From: Geosiphon pyriformis uo1
Taxonomy: Eukaryota; Fungi; Glomeromycota
Direction: 5' to 3'
Assembly (NCBI GenBank): GCA_016748015.1
Contig: JAAOMT010000303.1
Span: 124,001 to 188,000 of the forward strand
Length of the DNA stretch: 64,000 bases
Of the stretch, positions 2,458 to 63,259 are shown piece by piece. The position numbers were made by a program, and so were the translations under genes. Position 1 is the stretch's first letter; the number at the start of each line of letters is the position of its first letter. Under the pieces are notes generated by a model. That model searched no databases, was not told where the DNA came from, and was given only the letters and a program-made list of their open reading frames with translations.

Positions 2458-2557
2458 GTATATTAAAGTATATTACAAAAAATATTTATCTAAATTAACA
2501 TTTTATTAATAATTTGATATTTAAACATATTAAACACAATTTTTTCATCTTATATGT
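2458..2557 (+). pseudogene. hAT-family transposase C-terminal dimerisation region, 5' half (interrupted by the LTR element at 2558)
   Basis: Reads KYLSKLTFY**FDI*TY*TQFFHLIC, a decayed form of YL.E....DIL.YW...QFPHLAR. It joins in frame to 31549 onward once the insertion and one TSD copy are removed. Confidence 0.6.
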
Positions 2558-3514: not shown

Positions 3515-3773
3515 ATATAATCCAGCAAAAAACCAGCATTAACAACAATCATCTAAAAAAGTGGCAGATCAAGAAAGTATAAAAAAAAATCATTTAGAAT
3601 TTGTAAAATCCTTATTTTAGTATTATTAAAGTCATTTTAGATTAACAAATAACAATTGGTTAGCAAAATTAGCTTTCAATTTTTATGTCAATAAGAAAAT
3701 CAAATCCTACTTGGAAGTCTAAGAAAATTTAGAAGCTGTTCTTAACAACTTTAATAGTAAATTATTTTAAAAC

Positions 3774-4604
3774 ACCTGTAATTTGGTGCTTAAATTTAAT
3801 TGTAGTTGATAGTAATCTGAAGGTTTGTGTCTGAAAAGTTTGTATCCAAAGAGTTTGGTTGAGTTCTTTGTATAATAGACAGAGATTCAATGATAATAGT
3901 TTTATCCGTAGCTTCTCGAAACCACAGTTTTGTCAATTTTTTTCTCAGCTTGATGGCTGGTATTCCTCCTGATAAGCTATCTTCAATCAAGTGTTCTACC
4001 CTTATTTCTGGGTCTTTTACCAGTCATGTTTATCCTGACATCAGTACTTTGCACGTTAATCCTTAATAGAGTTAGTAAACAACAATAAAATCAAAGCAAG
4101 AAATAAAGAAAAGAAAAGAAAATAAAGAAAGAAAAGAAATAAGCCAAGGCAATTTGCAAGTTAGTATTCCGTTAATAGCCATGATTAAGAGCTATTGTTC
4201 CAGTGTAGTTAAGTATCAATTACTATTAACATGAAGTGTTGATAGTGGCAGTGGGTTTAAGATAACAAACAGTTATTTATTTGTGGTTTGGAAAGTTGTC
4301 CAGATGAAATTTAAACTGAGAGGTCTGTCTTTTTAGTTTTTAATCCTACTGCTATATATACATATTTGAGATTCCTCAATTCCTCAATTCTTCACAACAG
4401 GAATTCTGGGATTCCTGGAATTCTGCAATTCTTTTGAGAGGAATCTTAGAATTCTGGAATCCTGTGATTCCTTGTAAGAATTCTGTAATTCCTGGAATTT
4501 TGCAATTCTTGAGAGGAATCCTGGAATTCCACATTTTACTACATCTACTTCTAATTGGTTAATAACTATGTTAATATATATTCTCTATATTTCTATAAGT
4601 AACA
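3774..4604 (-). repeat. 3' LTR of copy A (distal ~40 bp lost), preceded by a polypurine tract at 4605-4619
   Basis: The minus strand reads aaaaagaagaaataa|TGTTACTTATAGAAATATAG and aligns to 13959-14711. Confidence 0.88.
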
Positions 4605-4617
4605 TTATTTCTTCTTT

Positions 4618-5246
4618 TTAATATTGAGCTCTATCGAAATTTAACTCTGTTAATTCCTCTTCTTGAAGTATTTCCTGAATTTCATTTTCGAGAATTACTT
4701 GTGTTATTTAAGTCTGTAATTCTTCAAATTGAGCGTTGGTAATCTTTCCTAATTGATTACTGATAACCATATCTATTGCTTTGTTGAGTAAGATTTCTGG
4801 TCGATCCTAAAATGCTGTGTGTATTCAGTATATGGCTCAGGTCTGTGTGGATAAGTTGTTATTTCCCACAAAATGTTCTAATTGTTGTAGTATTCATGTG
4901 TCGAATAATCGCTTTGTTTTATCTGTATATAGATTCTGGATATTCCTGTGTTGTTCTAAGTAAAATAACAATAGTTTCTTGAAAATTGTTGTATCCACCA
5001 ATTCCAAGTTTCTTTAGTCAACTCTTGGTATAGTGACTTTTTTGTCGACTTTTTTATTGCTAATTTTACTTTCGCAATGATTTTGTCAACAGTATTTTCT
5101 GTTTTCTTCTGTGTTCTATGTGGCAATGTCTTTTTAGTGTCTTGATATCAGATGGTTTGTTGATTAATTGTAATTTTCATCTCTTGGTGTTAAATCAATT
5201 GAAAAAGTTGTTGTGTTAATGAGTGGATGTTGTCTGTGATTTCCAT
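4618..5246 (-). pseudogene. ORF3 of copy A: ~210-aa protein of unknown function between integrase and PPT
   Basis: Manual translation MEITDNIHSLTQQLFQLI...ETWNWWIQQ...YPE...RPEILL...NFDRAQY*. Homologous to 29983-30614 (MKIPDQIHTMAQQLF...YPEILL...NFDRAQY*). Confidence 0.7.
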
Positions 5247-5300
5247 TTTTCTGATATTTTTTGTTGCATCTATCATGTCTTTATATATTTTTTTAATGAA

Positions 5301-6683
5301 TTAATTTAACATGTTATTGTCAATGATGATGATTGGTTCCAAATTTCGTGAAATCTCCTCTGATTGGATTAGTATCTTCTGTACTCTTAATTGTAAAATA
5401 TTACTGGTGGATAGTGGTGTGATGTTGTGGTATGGTTTCAGTTAATCTCTATATGCTGCTTTGGTTAAAATTTTGTTATCCAGTCTTAATTTGTAAGCTC
5501 CATTCCCTAGAATTTCTTCTATGTAAAATGATCCATCCCATTTGGGGTTGAATTTTCTACTCCATTGTTTTTCCGCTTTGGTATGATGTAAGAGTACTTT
5601 GTTTCCAATCTTGAATTCAACTGGTTTGTCTGATAGTTGATTATCATGTCTTTCTTTCTGTTTCTCTTGTAATTTTTGTATATTATTAGCTGCTCTTCTT
5701 CATTTGTTTTCCAATGTTTCCATTAAGTTATATGTTCTTCTTAACAATGTTTCTTGGAAATTTTCTTCTGTTATTAGTTCAGTTGGATATGTGTTAACCA
5801 CTATTTCAACTGGTAATATTGCTGTTCTACCATATATCAATTTAAATGGTGTTGTTTGCATGATGTCTTGCTTTATTGTCCAATAAGCAAATAATACTGA
5901 TGGTATAAACAAATTCTATTTGTTCTGGTTTTCTTGGCTGAGTTTTGCTATTGCTTTACACAATGTTCTATTAAATCTTTCAACTAATCCATTGGTTTGT
6001 GAATGGTATGGTGATGATAGTGGTCTTTTAATTCTGAATCTTTGGCTTAGTTCTGTTAATGTTCTATTTACAAAATAGGTTCCTTGGTCTGATAATAGTT
6101 CTTTTGGACATCCATGTTGACAAATCAGATCTTAATAGACAAATTCGGCAACAGATTCTGCATCTGCTCTTTGAATTGCTTTGGCTTCTGGCCATTTAGT
6201 AAGATAGTCCATGGCTACTGCAATATATCTGTTGCCTCTGCTGGTAATTGTCAATGATCCAACTAAATTGATTCCAATATGGTCAAATAGTTGTTCTACT
6301 TTGATTGGTCTCAATGGTTTGCTGGGTCTTGTTCCTTCTCTTCTTTGACAAGCATCACAATTTTGCACATATTGGATGATATCTGGATACATTAATAGCC
6401 AATAGTATCTCTTTCTGGTTCTTTTCATGGTTGCTTCTTTATGAAAATATCCTGTAGTTGAATTTGAGTGCATGTTGAACAGTATTGTCTCTTTTTCTGG
6501 TTCTGTAATTATTCTGGTTGGTTGATCTGAATTTTTTCTATTTTTCTGATAAAGTATATTTTGGTAAGTGATAAAATATTTGGATTGTTGTTTAATCCTC
6601 TTTTGTTTTGGTTGAGATAATTTCTCCTTGAACTGTTGAATATCTATATAATGTTGAAGTTGTTGATATTTTTGTGTGTTCAT
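5301..6683 (-). pseudogene. Integrase of copy A (HHCC zinc finger, DDE core, GPF/Y module), own ATG, no chromodomain seen
   Basis: MNTQKYQQLQHY start; H..H..CDAC; GINLVG (D>N); HPQTNGLVE-type motif; KWDGSFYI. Confidence 0.9.
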
Positions 6684-6747
6684 CTTTTGTTATATTTTCG
6701 TGAGTATTGTTTTGGTTTTGTTATATTTTTTTTTGGTTGAAATGTTC

Positions 6748-8076
6748 TTAGATTTGTCTCATTCATGACAAACTGTCAGCATTTCTATTGTCTTTTCCCT
6801 TTTTATAATGTATGATATAAGTATATGTCAAAAGAGCCATTTTTTATCTTGACTGTCTTCCATCTCCAAATTCTTGTTTTTGAAGTGATGTTAATTTTTT
6901 GTGATCTGTGTACACCTCAAACTTTTGGCTCAAGTATTTTTTCTATTTCATAACTGCTCAATAGATTGCTAAATGTTCTAATTCTGGTGTTCCATAGTTC
7001 TTTTCAGCTGGTGTTAAACCTCGGCTGGCATATGTGACTAGATGTTTTCTTTCATCTGGTCCTCTCTGAGATAGTACTGTTCCCAATGCTTGACCTGATG
7101 CATCGGTGGTAATAATAAATAGTTTATTATGATTTGGATAGATCAATACTAGAGCTTGAATAAGCTTCCTTTTTAAGATGTCAAATGCTTCTTGCTGGGT
7201 TTCAGTCCATTTATACTTTGCATTTTTGGTTTGAAGATCATTGAATGGTTGTGCTATCTTTAAAAAGTTCTTTATAAAGTGTCTATAATAGCTTGCGAAT
7301 TCCAAGAATGATTTCAGCTTGGTTATGTTGGTTGGTATTGAAAAGTTCTTTACTATCTCTATTTTCTCTGGATCTGTTTTTATTTTGTCTTTGCTAACTA
7401 TGTGTCCCAAGAATTTTAGTTTTGTTTTGCCAAAAAAACACTTTGTTGCATTCAATTTTAATCCTGTTTGTCATAGTCTTTCAAACACTTGTTGAAGATG
7501 ATGTAGATGATCATCAAATGTTTTTGAGAACACATTGGTGTTATCCAAGTATATAACTACTGATTTCCACAATAAGTTGGTATACACAATTTCTATTAGC
7601 CATTGGAATGTAGCTGGAGCATTGATTAAGCCGAATGGCATAACTTTAAACTCAAAGTTTCCCTCTCTTGTGGTGAATGCTGTTTTTTCTTTGTCGGCTG
7701 GATCCATGGCTACTTGCCAATACTCACTATCCAAGTCTAACATTGAGAACCATTTGTTTCCACCAAAAGCGTCAAATAGTTTTTGTATCCATGAAGTTAG
7801 ATAGCTGTCTTTACAAGTTACACTATTGAGTTTTTTATAGTCTACACAAAATCAGATTTTTCCATTCTTCTTATAGATGAGTACTACTGGTGACAACCAT
7901 AGGCTCATTGATGGCTGAATTAACCCATTATCAAGCATTTGGTTGATCTCTTGACAGATGATTTCATGGCTTGCTGGTGGTACCCTATATGTTTGCTGTT
8001 TAATTGGTATTGCATCTTCAGTCTTGATCTGATGCTGGATAATATCAGTTCTGCCAAAATTTGTTTTTACTGGCAA
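6748..8076 (-). pseudogene. Reverse transcriptase + RNase H of copy A
   Basis: LDLDSEYWQV, FEFKVMPFGL, YLDN (decayed YLDD), FLGHIVS, ITTDASGQALG, NYGTPELEHLAI; ends MRQI*. Confidence 0.93.
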
Positions 8077-8584
8077 AAATGTTATTGAAATTATTGAGTA
8101 ACATCTTTAGTTGCATCTGTTAAAATGGGTCTAGATTTCCTATGTTTATCTGTTCCAATTGTTTTGGCTGTAACAGATAACATTTGTTTCGTCCATAGAT
8201 AATTTGTAATGTAATGTCCACATATCCACAAAGCTGTGGAAAATCTGGAATGCTACTTAGTGCTTGATCTTCAATTTCTGTGGTTAAATATCCAAGAGTG
8301 GTTCCTTCCGGTATTTCTACAACATTTCCGGTGTTGTTGTAGATAAGAATTTTGATATGGTTATGGCTTTTGGCTGATATATGTAGATTGATAAGTCCAA
8401 TTTTTCCTGATTTACAAAGGGTTGCTTCTGCTTCAAAAATCTGTTTTTGTTCCTTCTCTCTCCTTTCTATTGTTAACATGTATTGGCTATATGATGGAAT
8501 GAAAATTGTTTGACTGGTTGAGATAATTTTTCCTTGGCCAATAATTTTTTCCTCCACTATATTGACTGGTACATCTATTCTACC

Positions 8585-8960
8585 CATTGATCCAAATCTC
8601 TGTATCCCTCTTGCTGTTATCCCTAATTCTTTCCTATTTCCCACTGAAACTAACTGAGCTATTTTCACCAGAGGCAGGAATATTGCCTATGCTATTCTTT
8701 CATTTGGCTTTATAATATAGGCCTTTTCTGAGTTATTTTGTAGCATAGCAATGATATTTCTTATATATCCTGCATCAATTATTCCTCCTCTGATGTTTAT
8801 TTCCTTTTTCACTAAATTATTCCTAAATGCTAATTGAACCATTATTGTTGCTGGAATTTCTAGTGCTATTTTCAAATCAATGCAAGTGCATGAATAGGGT
8901 TCCAATTTGATGGCATCCTTTTCTGGATATCTCAGATCAAATCCTGCATCAGTATTATGT
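8585..8960 (-). pseudogene. dUTPase domain of copy A
   Basis: All five trimeric dUTPase motifs recognisable: DAGFDL, AFRNNL (decayed ASRSSL), GGIIDAGYIRNI, RIA*AI, RGIQRFGSMG. Confidence 0.9.
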
Positions 8961-9189
8961 ACACATTCTGGCATAATATCTTCATCATTATTACTGAACC
9001 ATTTCAGTTCTTGCTCTTTGGTGAGATCAGAGAGTGCAATATATTGTTTGTAGTTTGAATTGGAGTTTGAATCTGAGTTGGAATCATTATCATAGCCATT
9101 TTGAACAGAGCTAGAACCATTATTTTTGTTATTGTTATTGTTGGAGTTTGAATTGGAGTTGGAACTCAATTCCAATTCTGATGTGCAGT

Positions 9190-9900
9190 TGTTGATTGGT
9201 TCTTCTTCTTCGGGGATCGTGTAGATCATGTGTGGTGGTGGATTGTAGATAAAGTCACAATCATCACAGAATTGGAAGTTACATGGAATCAAACAATGGT
9301 CACATAATCAGGTGTTGATTTTTTCCAAGCGTTGCTTTTGCTTTTCTCTTGTAGGTGCTAGATTCTGATAGTGTTCATGAAATTCTTCTGGGCTGTTTTC
9401 TAAGTCAATAAAGGCATTTAGATTGAGAACCAAAACAATGTCTGTTGGTTCTAAAAGGTTATTCTTGATCTTCAGAATTTTACTGGGTAAAGTGCCTTCT
9501 ACTTTGGCATTGGTCATTTGTCAGATCTTGTTCTCGTCATGTAGATAGCCATTTAGGCGGGATATAGCTCAGTGCCATGCTGCTGTAATAGGCATATCAT
9601 GACTTACCCAGTCGCTAATGAGGATTGTGTATTGGCATGAAACATCGCATATTCCTCTTTAATCAGAAATGTTATTCCATATTCCTTTGTTAAGTAATTG
9701 TTTGCTGCAAGCAAGACATGGTTCATTGTCCTACTTGCCTTGTTTTTTTGGGTAGCTATATCATTCTCTATGATAGGGCTTGCAATAATAATGGGTTTGC
9801 GTCCAGTAGTCTTCATCTGGTGCTACCTAAGCTCTCATTGAAGACAGTTTTTTCCTATAGTTCTTGCATTTGAGAGGTATATATGGTGGCTCTTTTATTG
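9190..9900 (-). pseudogene. Cys-rich spacer domain between protease and dUTPase (copy A)
   Basis: Several Cys clusters (CKNY, YCKPY, PCLACS, CDVSCQY, CDHCLIPCNFQFCDDCD) are conserved in copies B, D and F. Confidence 0.65.
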
Positions 9901-10329
9901 GTTCACATGAATATTCCCTTTCCCAGCCATTAGTTATTTCTTCTGCAGTGGTGGTTTCTTTAGATATGTTTTTTTCTCTTCCTTTCCTTTTTTCCTTGTT
10001 TTTTTCTTCCCAATCTAGAATTGATAACATCTCACTTTGGTTGTTGTCGGTCCAAGCATTAATGATGGCTTTCCAAATAAGTTCTTCTTTTTGTTTCTCC
10101 TTTCTGTTGTCGTTGTTGTCCTAGGTGAGTATTAATGGCAGTTTGTTGTGATTGACGTTGGCCCATGAGACTTGGTATACTTCCCAAGTGGGTTTCGCTT
10201 TTTTTTCCTTGAATTCGATAAGTGGTGTTGATGGCATGGTGATGGGCTTAAAGTGGTCACACATGGCTGGTACTCGTGTGTGTCAACCATTTTGGCTAAG
10301 CTAGAGCTCTTGGGTGTTCCAATCTAAGA

Positions 10330-10630
10330 TTGCGTTGGTTTTGGACAGCCAATCATTCTCAATGAGTGCTTGGTATTAAGTGGTTTCTATGATAAGTATT
10401 TTGATTGGTACTATAATGCCATTGACTTCTATGGGAAAATCATCAATCTCTCCAATAAGTGTTTTGGTTGTTCCATTGGCTGTAATAATCTTGGCACTGG
10501 CAGCATAATCAATTTGGCAACCTAATTGATCTATGAGTTGTTTTGTGATGATGCTGCCAGCTGATCCACTATCTAAGATCAGTTTGATAGAGTAACCATC
10601 AACTTTCACATCAGTGTACATCATGGTGAT
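10330..10630 (-). pseudogene. Aspartic protease of copy A
   Basis: IKLILDSGSAGSIIT...IITANG...LIENDWL: retropepsin D-S-G motif. Confidence 0.9.
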
Positions 10631-10899
10631 GGGTTTCTCCTCAAGTGCTGCTCTACTGAACAAGAGTGGGTTGATGGTTTCCTCCAATTTGAAAAGAAAG
10701 ATGGCTGCGAGAGATTTGTTTTTAGTAACTATTGCTGGTGGAATATTGTTGGTGAGTGTTGTTTGGGGTGGGTTGGATTCCGAGTTGTTGGTAGTGGCAT
10801 CTTCTGAGATAACCAAGAGACTTAAATAGTTCTGGGAATTCGGGTTTTGGGTGGAACCAGTACTCAGATTCTGCTGTCAAGAGCCTGATGATTGGTAAA

Positions 10900-13859
10900 A
10901 GAAGCTGGGAATCAGTTGATAAACAACCATCACCAATATCCAGTTTTGAGTAATTCTAGATCTTGGGTTTCTTGATGTTATTTGAATGGAGTTTTGGAGT
11001 GGTGTTTAAATTGGTTGTTGGGGCTGATAAATTATTTGGGGCTGCGGCTGATAAATTACCAGTGACTGCAGTTAATAAATTGGAGGTTGATAGATTAGTT
11101 ACTGCATCATTGGCAGGTAAGTAGTTTGATATTGGTCTTGATTTGGGTAGTGATTTTGAGTCTGAAATCTGCAATTAAGGTTTTGATATTGATTTCCCGA
11201 TTATGAATTGTTGCTATAAAATTGACAGTTGGCTCTAATGTGACCTTGTTTACTACAGTTATGGCAAACATGCATTTCTGGCTGCCATAGCTGATTGGGT
11301 AATGATGATGATTTTGATGGATGTGGCTAATTTTAGAAACAATTTGTGTTTCCTAAATTATTGCGTTGTTGTGGTGGTTAATAGATTGCATGATTGTCAG
11401 CTAAGTATTCCTCTTGTTTCTGATTGATTGTATCACTGAATTGTTTTAGTTTGGAATTCAAGTCAGATGATCTGTTCATCACTAAATTTACAGTTTGGAC
11501 ATGGTTGGCTTTTAGTTTGGCTGCTTCAAAATCTCTGGCATGGGTGATGGTAGTTGGGAGGTCAACTGGATGCATTGAGCATACTTGCTGAAGGATGCTA
11601 CTGCACAATCCTCTGATGAACTGGTTTAAGATCTGTGGCACTATAAAATAATGAGCTTAAATTGTCTGAATTTGGCACAGATTTCTATGGAAGCGTTGTT
11701 ACTCATAGAAATATAAAGAATATATATTAACATAGTTATTAGCCAATCAGAAGTAGACGTAGTAAAATGTGGAATTCCAGAATTCCTTTCAGGAATTGCA
11801 GGATTCCAGGAATTACAGGATTCTCACAAGAAATTGCAGGATTCCAGAATTCCAGGATTCCTCTCAAAAAAATTGCAGAATTCCAGGAATTCCAGAATTC
11901 CTGTTGTAAAAAATTGAAGAATTGAGGAATCTCAATTATGTATATATAGCAGTAGGATTAAAAGCTGAAAGAATGGATCTCAAAGTTTAGATTTCATCTA
12001 GACAATCTTTCAAACACAATAAATAACTATTTGGTATCTCAAACCTAATTCCACTATCAATACTCTATGTTAATAGTAATTGATACTTAAACACACTAGA
12101 ACAATAGCTCTTGATCACGGCTATTAACGGAATACTGACTTGCAAAATTGTCTTGGCTTATTTATGATTTTTTTTATTTCTTTTCTTTATTTTATTTTGA
12201 TTTTATTGTTGTGCACTAATTGGTTAAATAAAGTGCTAGATTACTAACGTCAAGGATTGTCTGGTAAAATACTCTTACAAGAGGGTAGGACACGTACAAA
12301 AGATATGGAATACTTACCAGAGGATTGCCGGCCATCACACTGAGAGAAGAATTGACAGAATTGCGATTCTGGGAAGCTACAAATAAAATAACTATTGAAT
12401 ATCTGTTTATTATACAAAGAACTCAAACTGAAATCTTCAGATACAAAACCTTCAGATTAATAACATCAATGCAAATAACTTTTAGTACCAAGTTACGGGT
12501 TTGTTATTTGATTCAACATCCCAAATAATCACTTGTAATAGCATTCCAAGTAAGTGGTGACTGCTTCTGTGTCCCCTTGTTTGATGGTGGTAAATGTGTT
12601 GGTCAAGTAATTGATATTATTGTTATTACTAAAGTATCTTAAGAATTCTGTTTTGAACTCATTAAAGGTTTGTGGTTTGGCGGCTAGGCTCTGATACCAC
12701 AAGTTGGCAGTATCTTTGAGAAAATAGGAGATTGCTTGAAGAGTTCTATTGTCATTCTATCCATTGGCCACTATGGCTTTTTTAACATCATTGAACCATA
12801 TTTGGGCGTCGTCCTTTTTGCCAATAAAATTGTCAAGTTTTGTGATTGGTACATAGGCCATTGGATCTAAGTTGGGTTGTTGTGATGGTAGTTGAAGTGG
12901 TTGTTGTTGCATGATTGGGGTGGTAGTTGAAGTGGCGGTTGTATGGGTTCAACTATTGGATTAATTGGTGGTTGATTGATAACGATTACTGGAGGTAAGT
13001 TTTGTTGATTTATTAAATCAGGATTTCGATTATCCTGAGTTGGTGATGTCTGAATATTCGGAGTTTTGATTTCTGGATTTTTTGAGTTTAGATTTTGCTG
13101 GGTTTAAAGATTTGGAGTTTTAAATTCCAGGTTTTTAGCAATTGGGTTCTGGTAAGTGAATTCTTGATCTTCAGCTTTTTCTTCTTCTTCTTCTTCTTCT
13201 TCTTCTGATTCCGTTACTTCCCACGGATCAGAAATTCCAAAATCTGGAGGAGGTGGTGGCAATCAGAGTCCTGATGGCATTGATAATTGTGAGTTAAATC
13301 CTTCAAAATACATGCCATATGGTCCTAATAACTCTGCTTTCCTTTGTTTACTTTGGAATAGGAATTGTCCAAATGCTGATGTTGCGTTTGATGTGGCCAT
13401 GCTGGTAGATGTAATATTAATGGTGCTTCTGGATGTATAGTAGTATGATGGATTAGTTGGAAACTCAACTCTTGTTTTCTTCCAAGTAGGTAGTTGTATT
13501 CTTTTGGGTGTTACTGCTGGTGTTTGTAGTTTTCCTTTGCCTTTGTTCGCGTAAGTAATGGGGTATTTTTGCTGTGTATGGTGTTCAATTTTTTTGTTGA
13601 TTTCCATGATGATGGAGGCGAAATTGTGATTTGTTGGCAGGTTGGTATTTTGAATTAATTTACTGTAAAAGACTTCTCTTGCTAATTTAATATTTACTAA
13701 TGTTCCTAACAGATAGGCAATTCTTTCATTGATGTAGAAATTGAAAGCTGATTCTGCTGATATGTGGTTGTGATTTAATTTCAAATGTTGACAGTAGTGT
13801 TGAAATAAAGATTTTGCAAATTCTAGATAGTTTGCTTCTATGTTTTTTGATTCTGCCAC
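10900..13859 (-). pseudogene. Gag of copy A (N-terminal extension, capsid-like domain, CCHC knuckle), split by a solo LTR
   Basis: CHNCSKQGHIRANC at ~11230-11270; QILNQFIRGL; N-terminal VAESKNIEANYLEFAKSLFQHYC. Confidence 0.85.
11697..12540 (+). mobile_element. Solo LTR of the same family, inserted antisense into gag of copy A
   Basis: Termini TGTTACTCATAG...TGTAATA with flanks GCGT/GCAT. Removing it restores aagcattccaagtaag, matching the uninterrupted copy at ~39420. Confidence 0.92.
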
Positions 13860-13918
13860 TTTTAGATTTGTGTTGGTGCTGGTTTTCTGTAGGATTATAT
13901 CTTACAGAAAGCACCAAA

Positions 13919-14711
13919 TGTTACAGGTGACTATTTCTGGTGTTGAATTAGATAACAAACCTGTAACTTGGTGCTCAAATCTAGTTGTAGTTGATAGTGA
14001 TCTGAAGGTTTGTGTCTGAAAGGTTTGTATCTGAAGAGTTTGGTTGAGTTTTTTGTATAATGAACAGAGATTCAATGGTAATAGTTTTATCCATAGCTTC
14101 CCAAAACCGCAGTTTTGTTAATTTTTTTCTCAGCTTGATGGCCGGTATTCCTCCTGGTAAGCTATCCTCAATTGAGTATTCTACTCTTATTTCTGGGTCT
14201 TTTACCAGTCATGTTTATCCTAATGTCAGTACTCCATGCGTTAATCCTCAATAGAGTTAGTAAACAACAATAAAATCAAAGCAAAAAATAAAAAAAAGAA
14301 AAGAAAATAAAGAAAGAAAAGAAATAAGCCAATGCAATTTGCAAGTTAGTATTCCGTCAATAGCCATGATCAAGAGCTATTGTTCCAGTATGGTTAAGTA
14401 TCAATTACTATCAACATGAAGTATTGATAGTAGCAGCAGATTTAAGATAACAAACAGTTATTTATTTGTGGTTTGGAAAGTTGTTTAGATGAAATCTAAA
14501 CTGAGAGGTCTGTCTTTTTAGCTTTTAATTCTACTACTATATATACATAATTGAGATTCCTCAATTCTTCAATTTTTTACAACAAGAATCTTGGGATTCC
14601 TGGAATTCTGCAATTCCTAAAAAAAATCTGGAATTTCACATTTTACTATGTCTACTTTTGATTGGTTAATAACTATGCTAATATATATTCTCTATATTTC
14701 TATGAGTAACA
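13919..14711 (-). repeat. 5' LTR of copy A
   Basis: Minus-strand termini TGTTACTCATAG...TGTAACA, with PBS at ~13901-13916. Confidence 0.92.
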
Positions 14712-17700
14712 CCACTGATATGGTGTATTTTTTGTCTTTCTTTTGGTGTTTCAATAGCAAATTGTTTGGTTGTTAACAATAACTTTTATGTTTAAAGATT
14801 ATTGACTTAAGGCCTGAAATAATTGTTGAGCTATGGTGTGAATATGATCTGGTATTTCCATTTTTTTTGGTTGCCTTTGTTACATATACTGTGTTTTTAT
14901 ATACTCTTTTATTGTTTGATTTTTTACATGTTTGGTCCAATAATTATGATTGGTTCCAGATTTTATGGAATCTTATTTGGTTGAACTAGTATTTGTTGTA
15001 CTCTTAATTGTGGAATGTTATTGGTGGATGGTGACACTGTATGGTGATATGGTTTCAGTTAATTATCATGTGCTGGTTTGGCTAAGATTTTGTTGTCCTA
15101 TCTTAATTTATAAGCTCTATTTTTAAGAATTTTTTCAATGTGAAATGGTCCATCCCATTTGGTGTTAAATTTTCTATTCCATTGTTTTTTCTCTTTAGTA
15201 AAATGTAGAAGTATTTTGTCTCCAATCTTGAATTCAACTGGTTTGTTTGGTAGTTGGTTATTGTGTCTCTCTTTTTGTTTTTCTTGTGATTTTTGAATGT
15301 TATCAGCTGCTTTTCATCACTTGTTTTCTAGAGTTTCTATCAAGTCATATGTTCTTCTTAGTAATATTTCCTGAAAATTGTCTTCAGTTATTGGTTCTGT
15401 TGGATAAGTGTTAACTTTTATCTCAACTGGTAATATTGCTGTTCTACTATATACTAATTCAAATAGTGTTGCTTGTATAGTATCTTGCTTCATTGTCCGA
15501 TAAGCAAATAGTACTGATGGTATAAACAAATCCCATTCATTCTGATTTTTTTGACTGATCTTGGCGATTGCTTTACACAATGTTCTGTTAAATCTTTTAA
15601 CTAGTCCATTTGTTTGTGGATGATATGGTGATGATAATGGTCTTTTTATCCCAAATTTTTGACTTAATTCTATTAACATTCTGTTCACAAAGTGAGTTTT
15701 TTGATCTGATAATAGTTCTTTTAGACATCCATGTCGACAAATCAAATCTTGATAAACAAATTTGGCAACGGATTTTACATCTGTTCTTTGAATGACTTTT
15801 GCTTTTGGCCATTTAGTAAGATAATCCATAGCTACTGTAATATATCTGTTGCCTCTACTGGTGATTGTTAATGGTTTGACTAAATCAATTTCCATGTGAT
15901 CAAATGGTTGTTCCACTTTAATTGGTCTTAATGGTTCACTTGGTCTTGTTTTTCCTCTTCTTTAACAAGCATCACAATTTTGAACATATTAGATGATGTC
16001 TGAATATATTGATGGCCAATAATATCTTTTTCTGGTTTTTTCTATGGTTGTTTCTTTATGAAAATGTCCTGCTGTTGAATCTGAGTGCATGTTAAATAAT
16101 ACTGTCTCTTTCTCTGGTTCTGTGATTACTTTGATTAATTGATCTAAATTTTTTCTGTTCTTCTAATAGAGTATATTTTGATAATTGATAAAATATTTTG
16201 ATTATTGTTTTATGTTGTTTTGTTCCTTTTGAGATAATTTCTTTTTGAACAATTGATTATTTATATAATGCTGGAGTTGTTGGTATTTTTGTGTGTTCAT
16301 TTTTTGTTATATTTTTGGGTTGAAATGTTTTTAGATTTGTCTCATTTGTAATAATCCATCAGCATTTCTATTGTCTTTTCTCTTTTTATAATGTACTGTA
16401 TAATTAAATAGTGAAAGTTTTATTTTCCATCTGGCATGGCAATTGTTTGCAAATTTTTGTTTCTGGATTGAAGTTAATCCTTTGTGATCAGTGTATACTT
16501 TAAACTTTTGGCTCAAGTATTCTTTCTATTTAATAACAGCCCAATAGATAGCTAAGTGTTCTAGTGCTGGAGTTCCATAGTTCTTTTTAGCTGGGCTTAA
16601 GCTTCTACTGGCGTAAGCTATTGGATGTTCTCTTCCATCTGATTCTTTTTGTGATAGTACTGCTCCCAATGCTTGATCTGATGCATTGGTGGTGATTATA
16701 AATAGTTTGCTGTAGTCTGAATACATCAATACTGGAGCTTGGATAAGTTTTCTTCTTAATGTGTCAAATGCTTCTTATTGAGCTTCAGTTCATTCATACT
16801 TTACATTCTTGGTCTGTAGATGGTAAAGTGGCTGAGCCAGTTTTGAGAAATCTTTGATAAAATGGCAATAATAGCATGCGAAACCTAAAAATGCTCTTAG
16901 TTCTGTTAAGTTGGTTGGTACTAGAAAGTTCTTAACTACTTCAATCTTGTCTGGGTCCATTTTGATTCCATTTTTGCTTACTACATATCCCAAAAACTTG
17001 AGTTCAGTTTTTCCAAAGAAATATTTGGTTGCATTTAGTTTCAATCCTGTTCTTTTTAACCTTTCAAACACTTGTTGGAGATGATGCAGATGATCATCAA
17101 ATGTTTTTGAGAACACATTGGTGTCATCCAAGTATACAACTACTGATTTTTATAGTAATTCAGTATAGATGATTTCCATGAGCTATTGGAATATTGCTGG
17201 GGCATTCATCAAGCCAAATAGCATGATTTCAAACTCAAAATTTCCTCCTCTTATGGTGAACACTGTTTTCTTTTTATCAGCTGGATCCATGGCTACTTGC
17301 CAGTAACCACTATCTAAATTTAGTGTTGAGAACTATTTGTTTCCACTGAAAGTGTTGAATAGTTTTTATATCCGTGGAGTTGGATAGCTGTCTCCATGAG
17401 TTACACTATTAAGTTTCCAGTAGTCTACACAAAAACAGATTTTCCCATTTTTCTTTTGGACCAGTACCACTGGTGATGACCATGGATTTATTGATGGCTG
17501 AATTAGCCTATTGTCAAGCATTCAGTTAATTTCTTGACAAATAATCTCATGGCTTGCTGGTGGTACTTTGTATGCTCTTTGTTTTATTGGCATTGTATCT
17601 CTAGTCTTGATCTGATGCTGGATAATATTGGTTTGGCCAAATTCATTTTTGCTGGCAAAGATGTCATTAAAATTGTTGAGTAACATCTTGAGTTGCATCT

Positions 17701-18164
17701 GTTGAAATGGATCTAGATTTCCCATGTTTATTTGTTCCAATTGTTTTGGTTGGAGCAGATAACATTCATTTTTTCTATAGATGGTTTGTAATGTAATGTC
17801 CACATATCCACAAAGCTATGGAAAATCTGGAATATGGTCTGGTAGTTGATCCTCAACTTCAGTGGTTAAATATCCAATGATGGTTCTCTTTGGTATTTTG
17901 ATGACATTTCTCATTGTATTGTAGATGAGAATTTCGATATTTTTGGGGCTTTTGGCTAATATGTAGAGATTAGTAAGTCCAATTTTTCCTGATTTGCAAA
18001 TAATGATTTCTGCTTTAAACAACTGAGCCTGATTCTTTACTTCTTTTTTTATGGCTAACCTATACTGGTCATATGGTGAGATGGAAATTGTTTGACAGGT
18101 TAAGATAATTTCTCCTTTGCCAACAATTTCTTTCTCTGCTATATTAACTGATATATCTATTCTA

Positions 18165-18545
18165 CCCATTGATCCAAATCTCTGTATTCCTTTAACTGTT
18201 ATCCCTAATTCTTTTCTTTTTTTCACTAACACTAACTGAGCTATTTTCACCAGAGGTAAAAATATTGCTTGTGCTATCTTTTTATTTGGCTCTATAATAT
18301 AGGCTTTTTCCAAATTATTTTGTAGCATAGCAATGATATTTCCTATGTATCCTGCATCAATTATTCCTCCTCTGATGTTGATTCTCTTTTTGGCTAGGTT
18401 ACTCCTAGATGCTAACTGAATCATTGTTGTTGCTAGAATTTTCAACACTATTTTGAGATCAATGTAGATGTGCAAATGGGGTTCCAATTTTATGGCATCC
18501 TTTCCAAAATATCTCAGATCAAACTCTGCATCAGTATTATGCACA
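18165..18545 (-). pseudogene. dUTPase domain of copy B
   Basis: DAEFDL, LASRSNLA, GGIIDAGYIGNI, IAQAI, KGIQRFGSMG within ORF 17816-18751. Confidence 0.9.
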
Positions 18546-21500
18546 TGCTCTGGTCTGTTACCTTCATTATTGTTACTGAACCATTTTAGTTTCTGCTCCT
18601 TGGTGAGGTCAGGAAGCACTATAAATGTTTCGAAGTTTGGATTTGAGTCCAAATTGCTATTATCTTTGTTGCCATATTGAATGGAGCTGGAATCATTGTT
18701 TTCATTGTTATCATTATCAGAGTTTGAATCAGAATTGAAAATTGATTCCAATTCTAATATGCAGTTGCTTATTGGTTCATTTTCTTCTGAAATTGTGTAG
18801 ATTATGTGTGATGATGGATTGTAAATGAGGTCACATTCATTACAATACTGAAAGTCACAGGGGATTAAGCAATATTAACATAATCGAGTGTTCAACTGCT
18901 CTAAATGCTGCTCTTGTTCTTCCCTAGTAGGTGCCAAATGCTGGTAATGTTCATGAAACTCTTCTGGGTTGTCTTTAATGTTGCCAAAGACGTCAAAAGT
19001 TTGTATGTATTTGGGTTCAGGAAGAGATAGAGGGTTGTTTTTGATCTCTAGTAGTTCACTGGTTGTCACATCTTCTGTTTTTGCATATGCCATTCTCCAT
19101 AGTTCATTTTCATTATGGGGATATCCTTCCAATTGTTACAATGCTCATTTTCAGGCATCATCAATTGGTGTTTCTTTGCTTACCCAATTATTTATTAGTA
19201 TGGTATACTGGCATGTCTCATCGCACGTTCCTTTATGCCCAGGAATGTTATTCCACATTCCTTTGTTAGGTAAAATAGTTCCACATGCAAGACATGATTG
19301 GTTATCTTACTTTCCTTGTTGTTTTGGTTATCCAAAGCATTTTACGATACATGGGCAACAGTAAAATCTTGTGGCTGTGGAGTATTCCTCATTATTGCCA
19401 CAGCATGCACCCATTGATAATAATTTCTTGCTGCAATTGACGCATTCCAATTTTGGTTGATGATAATTGGATGGTGGTAATGAAGTATAAGCATATGAAC
19501 TATAAGTGCTACTGGTGAGATTGTTTTTTTTTTCTTTCTCTTTTCCTTTTCCCTTATTAATTTTTTCTCACTCCCAGTTCGCTGGTTCGTCTTGGTCATT
19601 ATCAGTTTCCCAGTTTTGGTTAGTATTCCAAGTAAGTTCTTTGTTTTCTTTTCCTTTTCCCTTGTCATTCTACGAAAGTATTGGTGATAGCTTATTGTGG
19701 TCTTCGTCAGCCCAAAAGACTTGGTATGCTTCTCAGGTAGGTTTCTCTTTTTCTTCTTTGAATTTGATAAGTAGAGCTGATGACATGATGATGGATTTGA
19801 AATGGTCACACATGGCTGATACATGTGTGTGTTGTCTGTTCTGGCTGAGCTGGAGCTCTTGGGTGTTCCAATCAAGTGTCACATTGATTTTGAACAGCCA
19901 GTTATTACCCACTAGTGTTTGGTATTGAGTGGCTTCCATGACTAATACCTTGATTGGTATGGTGATGCCATTGATTTCTATGGGCAAGTTATCTATTTCA
20001 CCAATTGGAGTCTTGGTGGCTCTATTAGTGGTGATTATTCTTGCACTGGCAGCTCGATCAACTCAATGACCTAATTAGTCTATGAGCTGTCTTGTGATAA
20101 TGCTGCCAGCTAATTCACTATCTAGGATCAGTTTGATGGACTGACCATTAATTTTGGCATCTGTGTATATCACCATGATAGGTTTTTTTTCAAGTGTGGC
20201 TTTACTGAACAAAGGGGTTTCTGTCAGTTCCTCAATTTTGAAAGGAAATATAGCTGCTAGAGACTCGTCTTCCATGACAGTGGCTGGTGGAATATTGGTA
20301 AGTGATTGCTTCTGTTTGGATTTCTGAGTGTTGGATAAGGCATCTTCTGAGATAGCCAGAAGACTTAAATAGTTCTGAAAACTCAAGTTTTGAGTATACC
20401 CAGTTCCTGAACTCTATTGTTGTAATCCTGATGGCTAGTTGGATGAACTGGGGATTGGTTAGTGAACAACCATTGCTGATTTCCAGTTTTAGGTAACTTT
20501 TAATCTGAGGTTTTCTGATGTCATTTGAGCTGGGTTTGATGGTGGTGTTTGAACTGTGGGTGTCTGATAAATTATTTGTGGCTGTGGTGGTTGATATATT
20601 ATTGGTGACTGTGGTTGATAAACTGGAGGTTGATATACGGATGGTTGATATATTGACTGTTGTGTCATTGGCAGATAAGTTGGTTAATATGGGGCTGGAT
20701 TGAATTGATAACTCAGAGTTGGGAACCAGTGATCAGGGTTTCAATATTGATTTCCTGATTATTGGTTATTATTATAAAATTGGCAGTCAGCTCTAATGTG
20801 GCCTTGTTTACCACAGTTATGGCAGACATGTATTTCTTGTTACCATGGCTAATTTGAAGATGATGATAGATGCATCTGATTTTGGAAACAATTTATGTTT
20901 CTTGAATTATTGCGTCATTGTGGTGGTTGATAAATTGCACGATTTTTAGCTAAGTATCCTTCCAATTTCTGATTAATTGAATCACTGAATTGTTTCAATT
21001 TGGAATCCAATTCAGTTGATCTATTTATCACTAGATTAATGGCTTGAGCATGGCTTGCTTTGAGTTCTACCAATTCAAAATTTTTGGTATTTGTAATAGC
21101 ATTTTGGAGAGTTTGTGAATGCATTAAACATATGCACTAGAGAAGGCTACTATGCAGTCTATGGATGAACTGGTTTAGAATCTGAAGTGCAGTAAAATAG
21201 TCAGCTTGAATTGCTTGGATTTGGCGTAAATTCCTGTAAAAACATCCTAAGTAAGTGGTAACTGTTTCAGTTTCTCCTTGTTTGATTGTAATGAAGGTGT
21301 TGGCTAAGCAATTAATACTGTTATTATTACTGAAATATCCCAAAAATGCAGTTTTGAATTCCTGGAATGTTTGAGGTTTAATGGCTAAACTCTAATATCA
21401 TGAGTCAGTGATATCTTGTAGAAAATAGAGAATCACTTGAAAAGCTCTGTTATTGTTTCATCCATTGGCTGCAATGGCTTTTTCCACATCGTTGAGCCAT

Positions 21501-22598
21501 ACTTGAGTGTCATTCTCTTCATCGGTAAATTTCTTGATTTTGACGATTGAAGCATAAGCCATTGGTTGTTGTTGTGGTTGCTACTGGTTTTGTTGAGATA
21601 GTGGTTGTAGCTGTTGTTGTTGTTCAGCATTTGGTGGAGCTGGTGGTAGATTGATCACAATTACTGAAGGTAAGTGTTGTTGGTTGATTGTTTTGGAGTT
21701 TCGATTATTCTGAGTTGGCAGTGTCTGAATATTTGGAGTTTTGATTTCTGGATTTTCTAAAGTTGAATTTTGCTGAGTTTAAAAGTTCAGAGTTTTGATT
21801 TTCAAGTTTTCTATGATCGGGTTCTGGTAGGTAAATTCTTGATCTTCAGATTTTTCTTCTTCTTCTTCTTCTTGTTCTTTTTCCAATTCAGTGATTTTCC
21901 ACGAATTTACTGTTCTGAAATCTGGTTGAGGTGGCAGGGATCAAAATTCTGATGGCGTTGGTAATCGAGATTTAAATTCTTCAAAATATTTGCCATATAG
22001 TCCTAATAGATCTTCTTTCCTTTGTTTACTTTGAAATAGAAATTTTTCAACTGCTAATGTTGTGATTGCTGTGGATGTGTCTGTTGATATTATATTGATG
22101 GTGCTTCTGGGTGTATAATAGTATGATGAGTTGGTTGGTGATTCAACTCTTGTTTTCTTTCATGTAGGTGGTTGTATTCTTTGAGGTATTACTGCTGGTG
22201 TTTGTAGTTTTTCTTTACCTTTACTTGCATAAGTAATTGGATATCTTTGCTGTATATGATATTCGATTTCTTTATTGATCTCAGTGATGATGGATGTGAA
22301 ATTATGATTTGTTGGTAGGCTGGTGTTTTGAATTAATTCATTGTAAAAAGTTTCTCTTGCTGATTCAATATTTACTAATGTACCCAACAAATATGCAATT
22401 CTCTCATTAATGTAGTAATTAAAGACTGATTCTGCTGATATGTAATTATGGTTCAATCCTAAGTGTTGGCAATAATGCTGAAATAAAAATTTTGTGAATC
22501 CTAGATGGTTTGCTCCTATGCTTTTTGATTCTGCCACTTTTGGATGGGGTTGTTGGTGCTGGTTCTCTGTAGAATTATACTCTACAGAGAGCACCAAA

Positions 22599-23415
22599 TG
22601 TTACAGGTGATTATTTGGGGTCTTAAATCAAATAACAAACCCATAACTTGGTGTTCAATTAATATATAATGTGGTTGGTAATATCTAAAGGTATTGTTAT
22701 CTGAAGGTTTTGGTTGAGTTTTTTGTATAATAGACAGAGATTCAATTGTAATAGTTTTATCCATAGCTTCCCGAAACTGCAGTTTTGTCAATTTTTTTCT
22801 TAGCTTGATGGCTGGTATTTTTTCTGGTAAGCTATCCTTAATCGAGTATTCTACCCTTATTTTTGGGTCTTTTATCAGTGTTATATCCTGACATCAGTAC
22901 TCCATGCATTAATCCTCAATAGAGTTAGTAATAACAAAATAAAAAAGAAAAAAAAAGAAAAATAAAATAAAAAAATAAGTCAAGGCAATACACAAGTTAG
23001 TATCTGTCAATAGCCATAATCAAAAGCTATTGTTCCAGTGTGGTTAAGTATCAATTGCTATCAACATGAAGTGTTAATAGTGAAGAGTGGATTTGGATGG
23101 TAAATAATTTATTTATTCAATATTTGAGAATAAGAGATTTCTAACTAAAAAATTCTCCTTTTTCTACTTCTAATGCTACCACTATATATACATAATTTCT
23201 TGAGCAATGCTCACATTGCTGAGTAATGTGCTCTAATTTTCTAATATTGCTTCACATTGCTGAGCAATATGCCATGTTTTCTAACATTGCTCCACATTGC
23301 TGAGCAATGTGCCATGATTTCTGATATTGCTCTACATTGCTGAACAATGTGCTTACGTGTTAAATACTATTCTTTTATTGGTCTGCTATATCTGTTTTCT
23401 TTTTTATGAGTAACA
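22599..23415 (-). repeat. 5' LTR of copy B with a 40-bp tandem palindrome array in U3
   Basis: Termini TGTTACTCAT...TGTAACA; array at 23200-23352. Confidence 0.9.
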
Positions 23416-26400
23416 CCAGTAATTTATCAATCATCCCAGTTCTAAATAATGTATCAACTTCAACAAATTCAAATCCAGCTCTAGAACTTATCTTTTAATA
23501 GAAGCCAAAGACTAAGAATAACTTAAATCTGCCAGAATTAAAGATTAATACACCAACCAATTTCCAGTTTAGTAGCCCAAAAATCTGGATTATAACAGTA
23601 AAATTCAGAAATTAACTACACCCAAAACCCAAATTTACAGAACTATTTAAGTTTTTTATTTACCCCAAAAGACACCAAACTCAACAAACAAGAACCCAAT
23701 TAAATCTAGCTACTTACCAACAACATTTTACCAGCAACCATTATGGAAAATAAATTGTTTGCAGCCATCTTTTTTTTTGAACCTGAAAGCCAATCTCAAC
23801 ATTTCTTTTTAGTAAAGCCATTCTTAATACCAAATTTATTATAACAATATATATATTAATGTTAAAGTCAATGGTCAGTTTATCAAACTGATCCTAAATA
23901 GTAGATTAGCCAGCAGTATTATTACATAACAATTCATAGACCAATTAAACCACCAAGTTGATTGCACTGCCAGTACCAAAATTATTACTGCTGATGAAAC
24001 AACAAAAACACCTATTAGTAAGATTGACAACTTTCTATTTAAAGTCAATGACATTACAGCACTTATCAAAGTTTTTGTTATAAAAGCCACCTAATACTAA
24101 GCACTAATTAATAATAATTAGCTATTCAAAACTAATATCATGTTTAACTGGAATACTCAGGAGCTATAGCTTAATAAAGATGGTCTACAAATACAGGTAT
24201 TTGTCACTTGTGGTTACTTTAAACCAATCACCACTACCCAACCATTAATTGAATTAGAAAAAGAAAAAAAAACCTATCTGAAAAGTGTATTAAGTATTGT
24301 GGATAGAAAAAGACTATAATGAGCTACCACCAATTCTATTGTAGAACAACAAAAAGAAAGAAAAAAAGAAGAACAAATCACAACCCACCACCAATATCAG
24401 CAAAACTGCCAACATTTGGCACACATTATATTTAGTAGACACAAGAAAAAAACCACCTTATATTTCTCTTAAGTATATTGACTACAAAAAAAAGCTTTCA
24501 TCTATAGAAGCTTGGATAGTGCTAGACAAAAACTACTAGATACATATCTTTTATTATTGCAAACCATGCTACTGAAAATGTTTTAGTTACCCAAAATAAC
24601 AAGGAAAATAAAACAATGAATCATGTCTTACTTGTGAAAAAATACTAATTGACAAAAAAATATAGAATAATATTTCTGGTTAAAAAGGAACATATACATA
24701 TTGTATTAATACACAATTCTTATTAGTAACTGGGTAAGCCAAGAAATATCTTTTAATACTACATAGAACTGAGCATTTTTATGCTTAGACAGTTATCCAC
24801 ATAACAAGAACAAAATCTGGTAAATAACAAATGCCAAAGTTGATAATGTTTTGTTTAGTGAAATATTGGTAATCAAAAATAACCCACCAGAATCTGTTAA
24901 AACCATTCTTATTTCCAACTTAGATATATTTATTAATATCTTAAATGATTCAGAATACTTTTATAAATATTACCAAGACTTGACATCCACATAAAAAGAA
25001 CAAGAGCAGTATTTGAAAGAACTAAATACATAATTATATAATTATTGTTTAATTCCATGTAATTTCCAGTATTGTAATAATTGTGATATTATTTACAATT
25101 TACTATCATGCATGATCTATTCAATTTCCAAAGAAGAAGAACCAATCAGCAAATATGCAATAGAATCAGAATTGAAATTTAATTCCAATTCAGACTTTGA
25201 CAATAATAACAACAATAGTTCTAATTCTATCCACTATGACAACAACAATGACAATTCAAATTTTAATTACAATTTTGAACAATATATTGCACTTCCAGAT
25301 CTGTTTATAGAGCAAGAACTAAAATGGTTTAGCAATAATAATAAAAGTATTATACCAAAACATGCACATAATACTGATACAAAATTTAATCTTAAATACT
25401 TAGAAAAAACTTCTATTAGATTAGAACTACATTTGTGCATTAGTATAGATCTGAAAATAGCACTAAAAATTCTGGCAACAACAATAATCCAATTAGCATT
25501 TAGATCTAGTTTAGCAAAAAAAGAAATTAATATTAAAAGAAGAGTAATTGATACAGAATATGTAAAAAATATTATTGTAATGCTATAAAATGATTCAAAA
25601 AAAGATACACAATTAAACCAAATGAAAAGATAACATAGGCAATATTTTTATCTTTGGTCAAAATAGCTTAGTTAGTATTAGTAAAAACAAGGGAAGAATT
25701 AGGGATCACAGCCAGAAGAAAAAATAGATTCTAATTAATAGGTAGAATAGACATATCAGTTAATATGGCAAAAAAAAAACCAATTAATAAGAGAGAAACT
25801 ATCTTCACATATTAACCAGTTTCTATTCTATTATATAACCAGTATATAATAGTTATAGAAAAAAAGATGAAAAACCAACTCCAAATTTTTGAAGTAAAAA
25901 CCAACATTTATAAATCAGAAAAAATTGGAATTTTCAATCTCTACATACTAACCAAGAACTATAAACACATTAAAATCTTTATCTATAATAAACTAGTGTT
26001 ACCAGAAATTTTTGGTCTTTTCTTTTGAATGTTACTAATATCTGTTTGTTGTAAATTCATGACTAAAAGAAGTAGTTAAACCTCCAATAACTGAATTTAT
26101 CTTCAAATTATTGCCTATAATTTGAACTGCTGAGCTTATAAATGGAATAGCCAATTCCTTGTCAGTTACTTTATGTAGTTATATTGTTGTAAATGTCAAC
26201 TTTTTCTCAGGAATTGCTTATTTGGAAGCTTACTAAAAAATGTGTAGTTACTTTGCTGTAAAAAGTCAATTCTTTTACAGGAATCTTGTCTGTAGACTAC
26301 CTTAATGATTATAATAAGAAATAGAATTATGTTAAGAGAAACGTTTTCTATCTAGGCTTGGAGTTACTAACAGATTACTGAAATTAGTAGCTAATCAATT

Positions 26401-28518: not shown

Positions 28519-28548
28519 GAATATTTCAACCCAAAAATATAACAAAAA

Positions 28549-31544: not shown

Positions 31545-31548
31545 ATAT

Positions 31549-43100: not shown

Positions 43101-43107
43101 ATATAAT

Positions 43108-63070: not shown

Positions 63071-63259
63071 ACAATTAAATTTCTATAAAAAAACAATTTT
63101 TTATAAAAAACATTTTTTTATAGAACTAATTAATTAATTAACAATTTTTTCTCTATATAAAAACAATTTATAAAGGAACAAAAACATAATTTTATTAAAT
63201 ATTTATTTATTACTTTTGATCTTTATTTTTTGACTGTTTTTTCTTATTTTTTTTAACTT

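What the first reader, a model, noticed from the sequence alone, without database searches (positions are those of the whole stretch)
11693..12544. 4-bp target sites are centred on CpG: possible (methyl-)CpG-directed integration
Seen TSD pairs: GCGT/GCAT (solo LTR 11697), ATGT/ATAT (E/D), CTAG/CTGG (family-2 LTR) and possibly ATAT/ATAC (53519). The homologous unoccupied site for the family-2 LTR in copy A reads acaCCGGaaat, and the hAT codons A-R-M imply an ACGT site for E/D. Unpaired flanks CCAC (14712), CCAG (23416) and TCAA (41608) also have CA at the centre. Every central dinucleotide is CG or a deamination product (TG, CA, TA). Inference: these integrases prefer NCGN, which in a TE-methylating genome would steer them into other TEs and could explain the nesting without a chromodomain. 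Caveat: small sample, and TA/CA/TG are common in this background.
Basis: partly seen in the sequence, partly recalled or inferred. Interest (0 to 1): 0.78.

Follow-up and report, generated by a model that had tools for sequence, protein, structure and literature searches.

The report
Fungal retrotransposon landing on CpG sites
In a stack of dead, nested retrotransposons, four of the five insertion sites whose history can be read sit on a former CG dinucleotide, so this integrase likely prefers CG-centred targets as the related Ginger1 transposons do, but the sample is tiny and any role for methylation is untested.

Summary
The 4-bp target-site duplications are real for three insertions (GCGT/GCAT, CTAG/CTGG, ATGT/ATAT). 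The three unpaired flanks are as stated. The 53519 pair is spurious, and one discordant family-2 copy was omitted.

Reading ancestral states from empty homologous sites is stronger. Four of 5 testable sites fall on ancestral CG columns (P about 0.001 under a YR null, 0.006 if TA is excluded; mostly post hoc). No site is TA-only, and the TSDs are G+C-rich. Only one site shows CG directly at insertion.

The integrase resembles Ginger1/GIN1, whose TSDs are CCGG/CCGT/ACGG, so CG-centred targeting is known for a related integrase. My searches found no report of it for a fungal LTR element.

Methylation dependence, and the idea that it explains nesting, are untested. Genic DNA here has 4-60 times more CpG than the transposons.

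No genome was available. Verdict: a plausible new variant (about 0.6); methyl-directed about 0.17.

The parts
11693..11696 (+). Left TSD GCGT of the solo LTR; the only site where CG survives in a TSD copy
11697..12540 (+). Family-1 solo LTR (TGTTAC...GTAATA) inserted in the gag region of element A; 80% identical to A's 5' LTR
   Evidence: 12,361 contigs of run X1 lay on 11640-12600 and several skip the LTR
12541..12544 (+). Right TSD GCAT of the solo LTR
3768..14711 (-). Element A, Ty3/Gypsy: 5' LTR 13919-14711, PBS, gag, protease, dUTPase, RNase H, integrase; 3' LTR 3768-4604 cut by a deletion. LTRs 90% identical
14712..14715 (+). Unpaired flank CCAC (A inserted in B, downstream of the integrase end); the only empty homologue (D) reads TCAT, so no CG evidence
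14712..23415 (-). Element B: 5' LTR 22599-23415, internal region interrupted by A; 3' end lost
23416..23419 (+). Unpaired flank CCAG (B inserted in D); empty homologue in A reads CTGG, implying ancestral CCGG (B CCAA or CCAG, C CAAC and F TAAG are less clear)
2554..2557 (+). Left TSD ATGT of element E/D, inside a hAT dimerisation-domain codon
2558..31544 (+). Element E/D: 5' LTR 2558-3496, 3' LTR 30626-31544 (84% identical); host of B and of the family-2 LTR
31545..31548 (+). Right TSD ATAT of E/D
31546..31689 (+). Decayed hAT dimerisation domain continuing the frame that ends at 2557
   Evidence: Pfam PF05699 weak, E 0.16; 5 clear hAT homologues among 6 hits
25993..26942 (+). Family-2 solo LTR 25997-26938 with TSD CTAG/CTGG in the dUTPase-to-RT region of D; empty sites A CCGG, C CTGG, B TGAG
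33657..41611 (-). Element C (5' LTR 40789-41607) with unpaired flank TCAA 41608-41611; no homologue of the flank
62096..63074 (-).
53515..54293 (+). Family-3 repeat copy; the proposed ATAT/ATAC duplication is not a TSD

Best explanation
These are nested, decayed Ty3/Gypsy elements without a chromodomain that make 4-bp target duplications, and their integrase likely prefers a CG at the centre of the target (NCGN, Ginger1-like), a CG that later decay has mostly turned into TG, CA or TA. Shown: the duplications, the nesting order (hAT < E/D < B < A < solo LTR, and family 2 in D), one surviving CG, CG-type ancestry at three more sites, and strong CpG loss. Inferred: that the CG was still there at insertion in those three sites; that the intasome reads it by base contacts plus the kink that 4-bp integrases impose on the central YR step; and that the host is an early-diverging fungus that methylates TE CpG. 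Nesting is most simply explained by TE density plus selection against genic insertions. Whether methylation sharpens the preference is open.
For: 4 of 5 testable sites on ancestral-CG columns, against 13-20% expected for YR sites. 0 of 6 sites are TA-only, P about 0.02 under YR with present local frequencies. TSD G+C is 14 of 24 against 6.5 expected (P 0.001), or 11 of 24 with the least favourable copies (P 0.036). Extra flanks from run X1: CTGT, ACAT, ACAG, plus two contigs aligning through GCGT; CTGT and ACAG are one decay step from Ginger1's CCGT and ACGG. Precedent: Ginger1 TSDs are CCGG 75% and CCGT/ACGG 24% (PMC2836005). The top Atlas cluster for a relative's integrase is GIN1, score 0.95 (a lead only). 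An integrase search returned a TIR element without RT, with TSD ACGG/ACGG and 43% core identity to P0009 (L100); a second terminus of that family is flanked by CCGT.
Against: n = 6 sites, and three of the four positive sites prompted the hypothesis; the one new site alone has P about 0.2 (14 of 59). The hAT null rate was assumed, not measured. Neither old pair shows the diagnostic TG/CA discordance, and a TG/TA pair is about twice as likely from TG as from CG (0.39 against 0.19, frequencies). The family-2 site is a wobble position. CCAC and TCAA give no CG evidence, and the 62 kb copy may be centred on AA. In one search the majority flank of 42 contigs after a decayed LTR end reads TTAG (agreement 0.46, possibly mixed with PBS). 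In one search only 2 non-self contigs of 60 reach the CG position; each loose-end row is a consensus of two contigs, and ACAT and ACAG share a 9-base upstream stretch, so they may be one event. The quick tree does not group the window clade exclusively with the Ginger1-like rows. The YPYY proline is K in 4 of 4 window copies.
Confidence: 0.58

Rival explanations
1. Generic central YR-step preference: the intasome kinks the target at the centre of a 4-bp stagger and favours any of CG, TG, CA or TA. The CG ancestry at several sites is luck plus post-hoc selection.
For: All four 4-bp-TSD retroviruses tested enrich central YR by 63% on average (PMC4422553), and MLV behaves alike (PMC4477651). Many Drosophila Gypsy families use ATAT (PMC3276498). 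Ty3 and PFV integrases are the closest solved relatives. 5 of 6 family-3 left flanks are centred on TA (it is uncertain that they are true flanks). TG/TA pairs fit a TG start better.
Against: P 0.0065 (3 of 4) and 0.0014 (4 of 5) under this null, or 0.02 and 0.006 when TA is excluded. No TA-only site among six, and the TSDs are G+C-rich. The published YR enrichment is mild (about 36% of sites), whereas here it is 6 of 6.
Confidence: 0.28
2. Methyl-CpG-directed integration: the integrase itself favours 5mCpG (or its TpG mimic) at the kink, so new copies land in young methylated TEs. This would explain the four-deep nesting with no chromodomain or MBD.
For: All six sites are in TE DNA, five with an identified TE host. 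The genic 5.4 kb holds 143 CpG and no insertion. No chromodomain or MBD was found. AM-fungal TEs are CG-methylated (PMC8647823). Cytosine methylation created strong target preferences for an avian retroviral integrase in vitro (review sentence, PMC11054761).
Against: No methylation data. Purifying selection and about 85% repeat content of the window explain TE-in-TE insertion equally well. The Ginger1 passages read report CCGG specificity with no mention of methylation.
Confidence: 0.17
3. No real preference: a small-sample coincidence in a TG/CA/TA-rich background.
For: Six sites; one proposed pair was spurious and one discordant copy was left out.
Against: 6 of 6 YR has P about 2e-4; 3 of 4 CG-evidence columns has P 1.3e-4 under random siting.
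Confidence: 0.06

Closest known systems
Ginger1 DNA transposons (PMC2836005)
   Same: Gypsy-type integrase with H2C2, DDE core and GPY/F; TGT..ACA ends; 4-bp TSD centred on CG (CCGG, CCGT/ACGG). The window's TSDs can be read as decayed CCGG, ACGT, GCGT.
   Different: Ginger1 has TIRs and no RT and was described in animals. These are LTR retrotransposons of a probable fungus. The outer TSD bases here vary more, and the YPYY proline is absent in the window copies.
Central YR-step preference of 4-bp-TSD integrases (PFV, MLV, PERV, XMRV; PMC4422553, PMC4477651)
   Same: 4-bp stagger; every observed centre is YR.
   Different: That preference is mild and not restricted to CG. Here ancestral CG is over-represented and TA-only sites are absent in the six sites.
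Drosophila ZAM/Tirant errantiviruses (PMC5408687)
   Same: LTR retrotransposons with a CpG-containing 4-bp target (CGCG) and GC-rich, partly heterochromatic insertion.
   Different: CGCG is centred on GC, not CG; different lineage; host without CpG methylation of TEs (own knowledge).
CopiaMBD (PMC6673714) and chromoviruses
   Same: Proposed steering of integration to methylated or heterochromatic TE regions.
   Different: They use an added reader domain (MBD, chromodomain). None was found here, so any steering would have to come from the integrase-target contact itself.

Membership tests
Ty3/Gypsy LTR retrotransposon | Order protease - (RT) - RNase H - integrase | tested here: met
   Pfam on A's ORFs: protease 10376-10876, dUTPase, RNase H 6958-7470, H2C2 6132-6689. 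RT itself was not among the 14 ORFs scanned but is present in relative L010.
Ty3/Gypsy LTR retrotransposon | LTRs TG..CA, PBS, short TSD | tested here: met
   5 LTR-end+PBS matches, 0 expected; three 4-bp pairs
Ty3/Gypsy LTR retrotransposon | GPY/F motif in the integrase C-terminus | tested here: met
   KWDGPF in copy B
Chromovirus | Chromodomain after the integrase | tested here: not met
   No chromo family in 120 listed homologues (length-limited) or in 9 proteins including the complete L010 integrase. The window frame stops shortly after the SH3-like part.
Ginger1 | TIRs and no reverse transcriptase | tested here: not met
   Direct LTRs, PBS, gag-pol
Ginger1 | 4-bp TSD | tested here: met
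Ginger1 | TSD CCGG or CCGT/ACGG | tested here: inconclusive
   Two sites imply CCGG, one ACGT, one GCGT, two unresolved
Ginger1 / YPYY-group Gypsy | YPYY motif before the zinc finger | tested here: inconclusive
   Homologues: Y 22 of 24, P in 11 rows, F/Y 23 of 25, Y 24 of 25. The window copies have K for P in 4 of 4. The column assignment is mine; the paper's alignment figure was not visible.
Ginger1 / YPYY-group Gypsy | Integrase groups with Ginger1 in a tree | tested here: inconclusive
   Quick tree, 130 rows, 158 columns: the window clade, other Gypsy rows and the Ginger1-like rows share an open node (SH-aLRT 85) apart from the 5-bp-TSD rows, but not exclusively
CopiaMBD-type methylation reader | Encoded methyl-CpG binding domain | tested here: not met
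   None in 14 window ORFs or 4 of 5 ORFs of L010; gag and short decayed frames were not scanned
Methyl-CpG-directed integration | Preference for methylated over unmethylated CpG | not testable with these tools
   No methylome, no genome

The most novel reading that the evidence does not exclude
A fungal Ty3/Gypsy lineage whose integrase reads methylated CpG directly at the kink of its target. It would use the host's silencing mark as a landing signal, nest in young TEs without any reader domain, and lose its targets as methylated CpG decays, which makes the burst self-limiting.
Probability: 0.17. Interest if true: 0.82.

Novelty: new variant of a known kind. Interest (0 to 1): 0.52.

Why it matters
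If confirmed genome-wide, it extends CG-centred targeting from Ginger1 DNA transposons to an LTR retrotransposon lineage, which bears on the Gypsy-Ginger1 relationship. It also gives a domain-free route by which an LTR element could track methylated repeats in fungi with TE-swollen genomes. The test is cheap once an assembly is at hand, because the family has a very high copy number. If only YR is found, the result is ordinary.

Tried and rejected
GENOME-WIDE COUNT: no whole genome is held, so this could not be run.

PATTERN SCANS: an LTR-start pattern in viral contigs gave 0; the integrase in viral contigs gave 0 and 3 bacterial-type hits; an LTR-end+PBS pattern in metagenomes gave 0.

RELATED LOCI: the 80 metagenome loci gave collapsed or circular elements with no TSD pair for the close clade. 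The 80 loci from prokaryote genome records held only distant Gypsy elements, some with clear 5-bp TSDs, plus the Ginger1-like L100. No convincing TIR pair was found for the other six Ginger1-like rows.

READS: runs X2 and X3 hold next to none of the sequence. X1 may be this DNA's own source, so it is not independent of the window, though its other copies are other insertions. I could not convert the depth steps into copy counts: two readings of the contig lengths disagreed.

OTHER: the family-3 far end could not be found, so there is no pair. The careful tree did not finish; the quick tree left out 18 loci lacking a 125-residue stretch. A RIP-like CpA process was rejected as the cause of TSD mismatches because C>T is similar in CA, CC and CT (11.8, 10.8, 13.9%). 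The 1992 methylation paper is not held.

Full report
SETTING. The window is AT-rich with CpG at 0.26 of expectation. About 54 kb is decayed repeats. A genic stretch at 54.8-60.25 kb (Hsp70) keeps 26 CpG per kb against 0.4-6.6 in the repeats. No genome is held. The main repeats are Ty3/Gypsy elements with protease, dUTPase, RNase H and integrase. The host is inferred, not shown, to be an early-diverging fungus: the nearest integrase relatives are about 55% identical proteins, mostly from metagenome assemblies, and one top Atlas cluster is mostly Mucoromycota.

ANATOMY. Element E/D (LTRs 2558-3496 and 30626-31544, 84% identical) sits in a hAT dimerisation domain; the frame ending at 2557 continues at 31546. 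B and a family-2 solo LTR inserted into D, A (LTRs 90% identical) into B, and the solo LTR of the finding into A's gag. A deletion at 3767/3768 removed the partners of the CCAC and CCAG flanks. Run X1 carries very many copies: 12,361 contigs lay on the 961-base stretch, and some skip the LTR exactly, confirming the empty site.

CHECK OF THE OBSERVATION. Three pairs and three unpaired flanks are as stated. The 53519 pair fails, because homologues run on past the supposed end. A second family-2 LTR at 62100-63070 was not listed and gives TTGT/CAAT or TAAT/CAAT. Passages of PMC4422553 show that four retroviruses with 4-bp duplications enrich central YR by 63% over a 22% background, and passages of PMC4477651 agree. 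C>T decay outside CpG is 11-14% per copy in CA, CC and CT alike, against 3-4% for T>C. So 6 of 6 YR (P about 2e-4) shows a preference but not which one.

SEPARATING CG FROM YR. I scored alignment columns of the four internal copies as CG-type if any copy has CG, or if both TG and CA occur. Such columns are 3-5% of all columns, 13-20% of YR columns and 19-32% of non-TA YR columns (much lower for the two-copy region). The solo site (CG present; homologues CA, CA, TG), the family-2 site (CCGG in A) and the CCAG site (CTGG in A) are CG-type. CCAC is not, and TCAA has no homologue. P for 3 of 4 is 1.3e-4, 0.0065 and 0.02 under random, YR and non-TA YR siting. At the hAT site, 4 of the 5 homologues that I fetched (of 6 hits) cover the codon and read R, H, C, H, the decay set of a CGY codon. 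With an assumed null of 0.2-0.3, 4 of 5 gives 0.0014 and 0.0064. No site is TA-only (P 0.02), and TSD G+C is 14 of 24 against 6.5 expected, or 11 of 24 with the least favourable copies (P 0.001 and 0.036). Laying X1 on 11689-11736 gave 60 contigs; the four flank-side loose-end rows read CTGT, ACAT, ACAG, and two contigs align through GCGT.

AGAINST. Three of the four positive sites suggested the hypothesis; the new one has P about 0.2 alone. An ancestral CG column need not have been CG at insertion, and only the solo site shows that directly. In D, CG-type columns end as TA 0.38, CA 0.30, TG 0.25 and TG columns as TG 0.50, TA 0.39, so each TG/TA pair is about twice as likely from TG. The family-2 base is a wobble position. 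The rows are consensuses of two contigs, two of them may be one event, and the aligner may have crossed a mismatch in the GCGT group. In one search the majority flank of 42 contigs reads TTAG at low agreement. Family-3 left flanks are TA-centred in 5 of 6 cases, in DNA too decayed to interpret.

MECHANISM. The most likely mechanism is that the intasome cuts with a 4-bp stagger, kinks the central step (established for PFV; Ty3 and PFV are the closest solved relatives) and adds base contacts that favour CG. Later CpG and general C>T decay then turns the copies into TG, CA and TA. The precedent is Ginger1, with 4-bp TSDs CCGG 75% and CCGT/ACGG 24% (abstract and passages of PMC2836005). The link to this family is suggestive only. 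GIN1 is the top Atlas cluster for P0009. The integrase search retrieved a TIR element without RT, with TSD ACGG/ACGG (L100, 402-10926), and a second terminus flanked by CCGT. Three of four YPYY positions are kept, but the proline is K in the window. The quick tree puts Ginger1-like rows and the window clade under one open node that also holds other Gypsy rows, which I take from recall to include plant Athila/Tat with 5-bp TSDs.

METHYLATION AND NESTING. No chromodomain or MBD was found. That is possible. TEs of Rhizophagus are CG-methylated (passages of PMC8647823). Methylation created strong target preferences for an avian retroviral integrase in vitro (one review sentence in PMC11054761; the original is not held). 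CopiaMBD elements accumulate in methylated regions through an added domain (abstract and passages of PMC6673714). Nothing here tests it, and TE density plus selection explain the nesting as well.

NOVELTY. CG-centred 4-bp targets are known for Ginger1, and CGCG for ZAM/Tirant (passages of PMC5408687). Drosophila Gypsy families otherwise use ATAT or TATA (passages of PMC3276498). Searches, and passages of PMC11952901, PMC6839031 and PMC12440569, showed no report of a CG-centred TSD in a fungal LTR retrotransposon. I saw listings only for most hits, opened no supplements, and the library lacks Repbase reports and most subscription papers. The scan's earlier notes held nothing on this.

VERDICT. 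Observation partly confirmed. CG-centred preference about 0.58 (this includes the methyl-directed case at about 0.17), generic YR about 0.28, chance about 0.06, and the rest mixed. New variant of a known kind; interest 0.52.

Noticed in passing
window 5871-9765, 15488-19341, 24575-29349, 33657-37520: C>T decay is high and about equal in CA, CC and CT contexts (11-14% per copy against 3-4% for T>C), on top of CpG loss. It is not RIP-like CpA, and copy D is far more decayed than A, B and C.
   Followed up: partly
window 8687-9307 and 17816-18874: A dUTPase domain lies between protease and RT in these Ty3/Gypsy elements; the relative L010 has none in its pol ORF.
   Followed up: no
window 22599-23415: B's 5' LTR looks recombinant: the outer 210 bp match the E/D-type LTR (30649-30841) and the rest matches the A-type LTR.
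   Followed up: no
window 3767/3768: One deletion joins E's gag to the inside of A's 3' LTR, removing about 35 bp of the LTR end, B's 3' end and part of E/D.
   Followed up: partly
window 54800-60250: A sharply bounded genic island with normal CpG: an intron-rich leucine-rich-repeat gene (by eye) and Hsp70, with no transposon insertion seen.
   Followed up: partly
window 42214-44224, 46653-47380, 52566-54293, 60765-61148: A third repeat family starting TGTTAC, six or seven partial copies; the far end was not found.
   Followed up: partly
window 44297-44914 and 45896-46513: An inverted pair of 618 bp, 80% identical, that by eye resembles a non-LTR RNase H; not tested.
   Followed up: no
L100:402-10926: A 10.5-kb Ginger1-like TIR element with TSD ACGG in a record labelled as a bacterial MAG. 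This and loci such as L097, L102 and L115 are probably eukaryotic contamination of those records.
   Followed up: partly
L010:7458-9179 and L022 3' region: Relatives carry extra ORFs between the integrase and the 3' LTR (two in L010) with no convincing Pfam match.
   Followed up: partly
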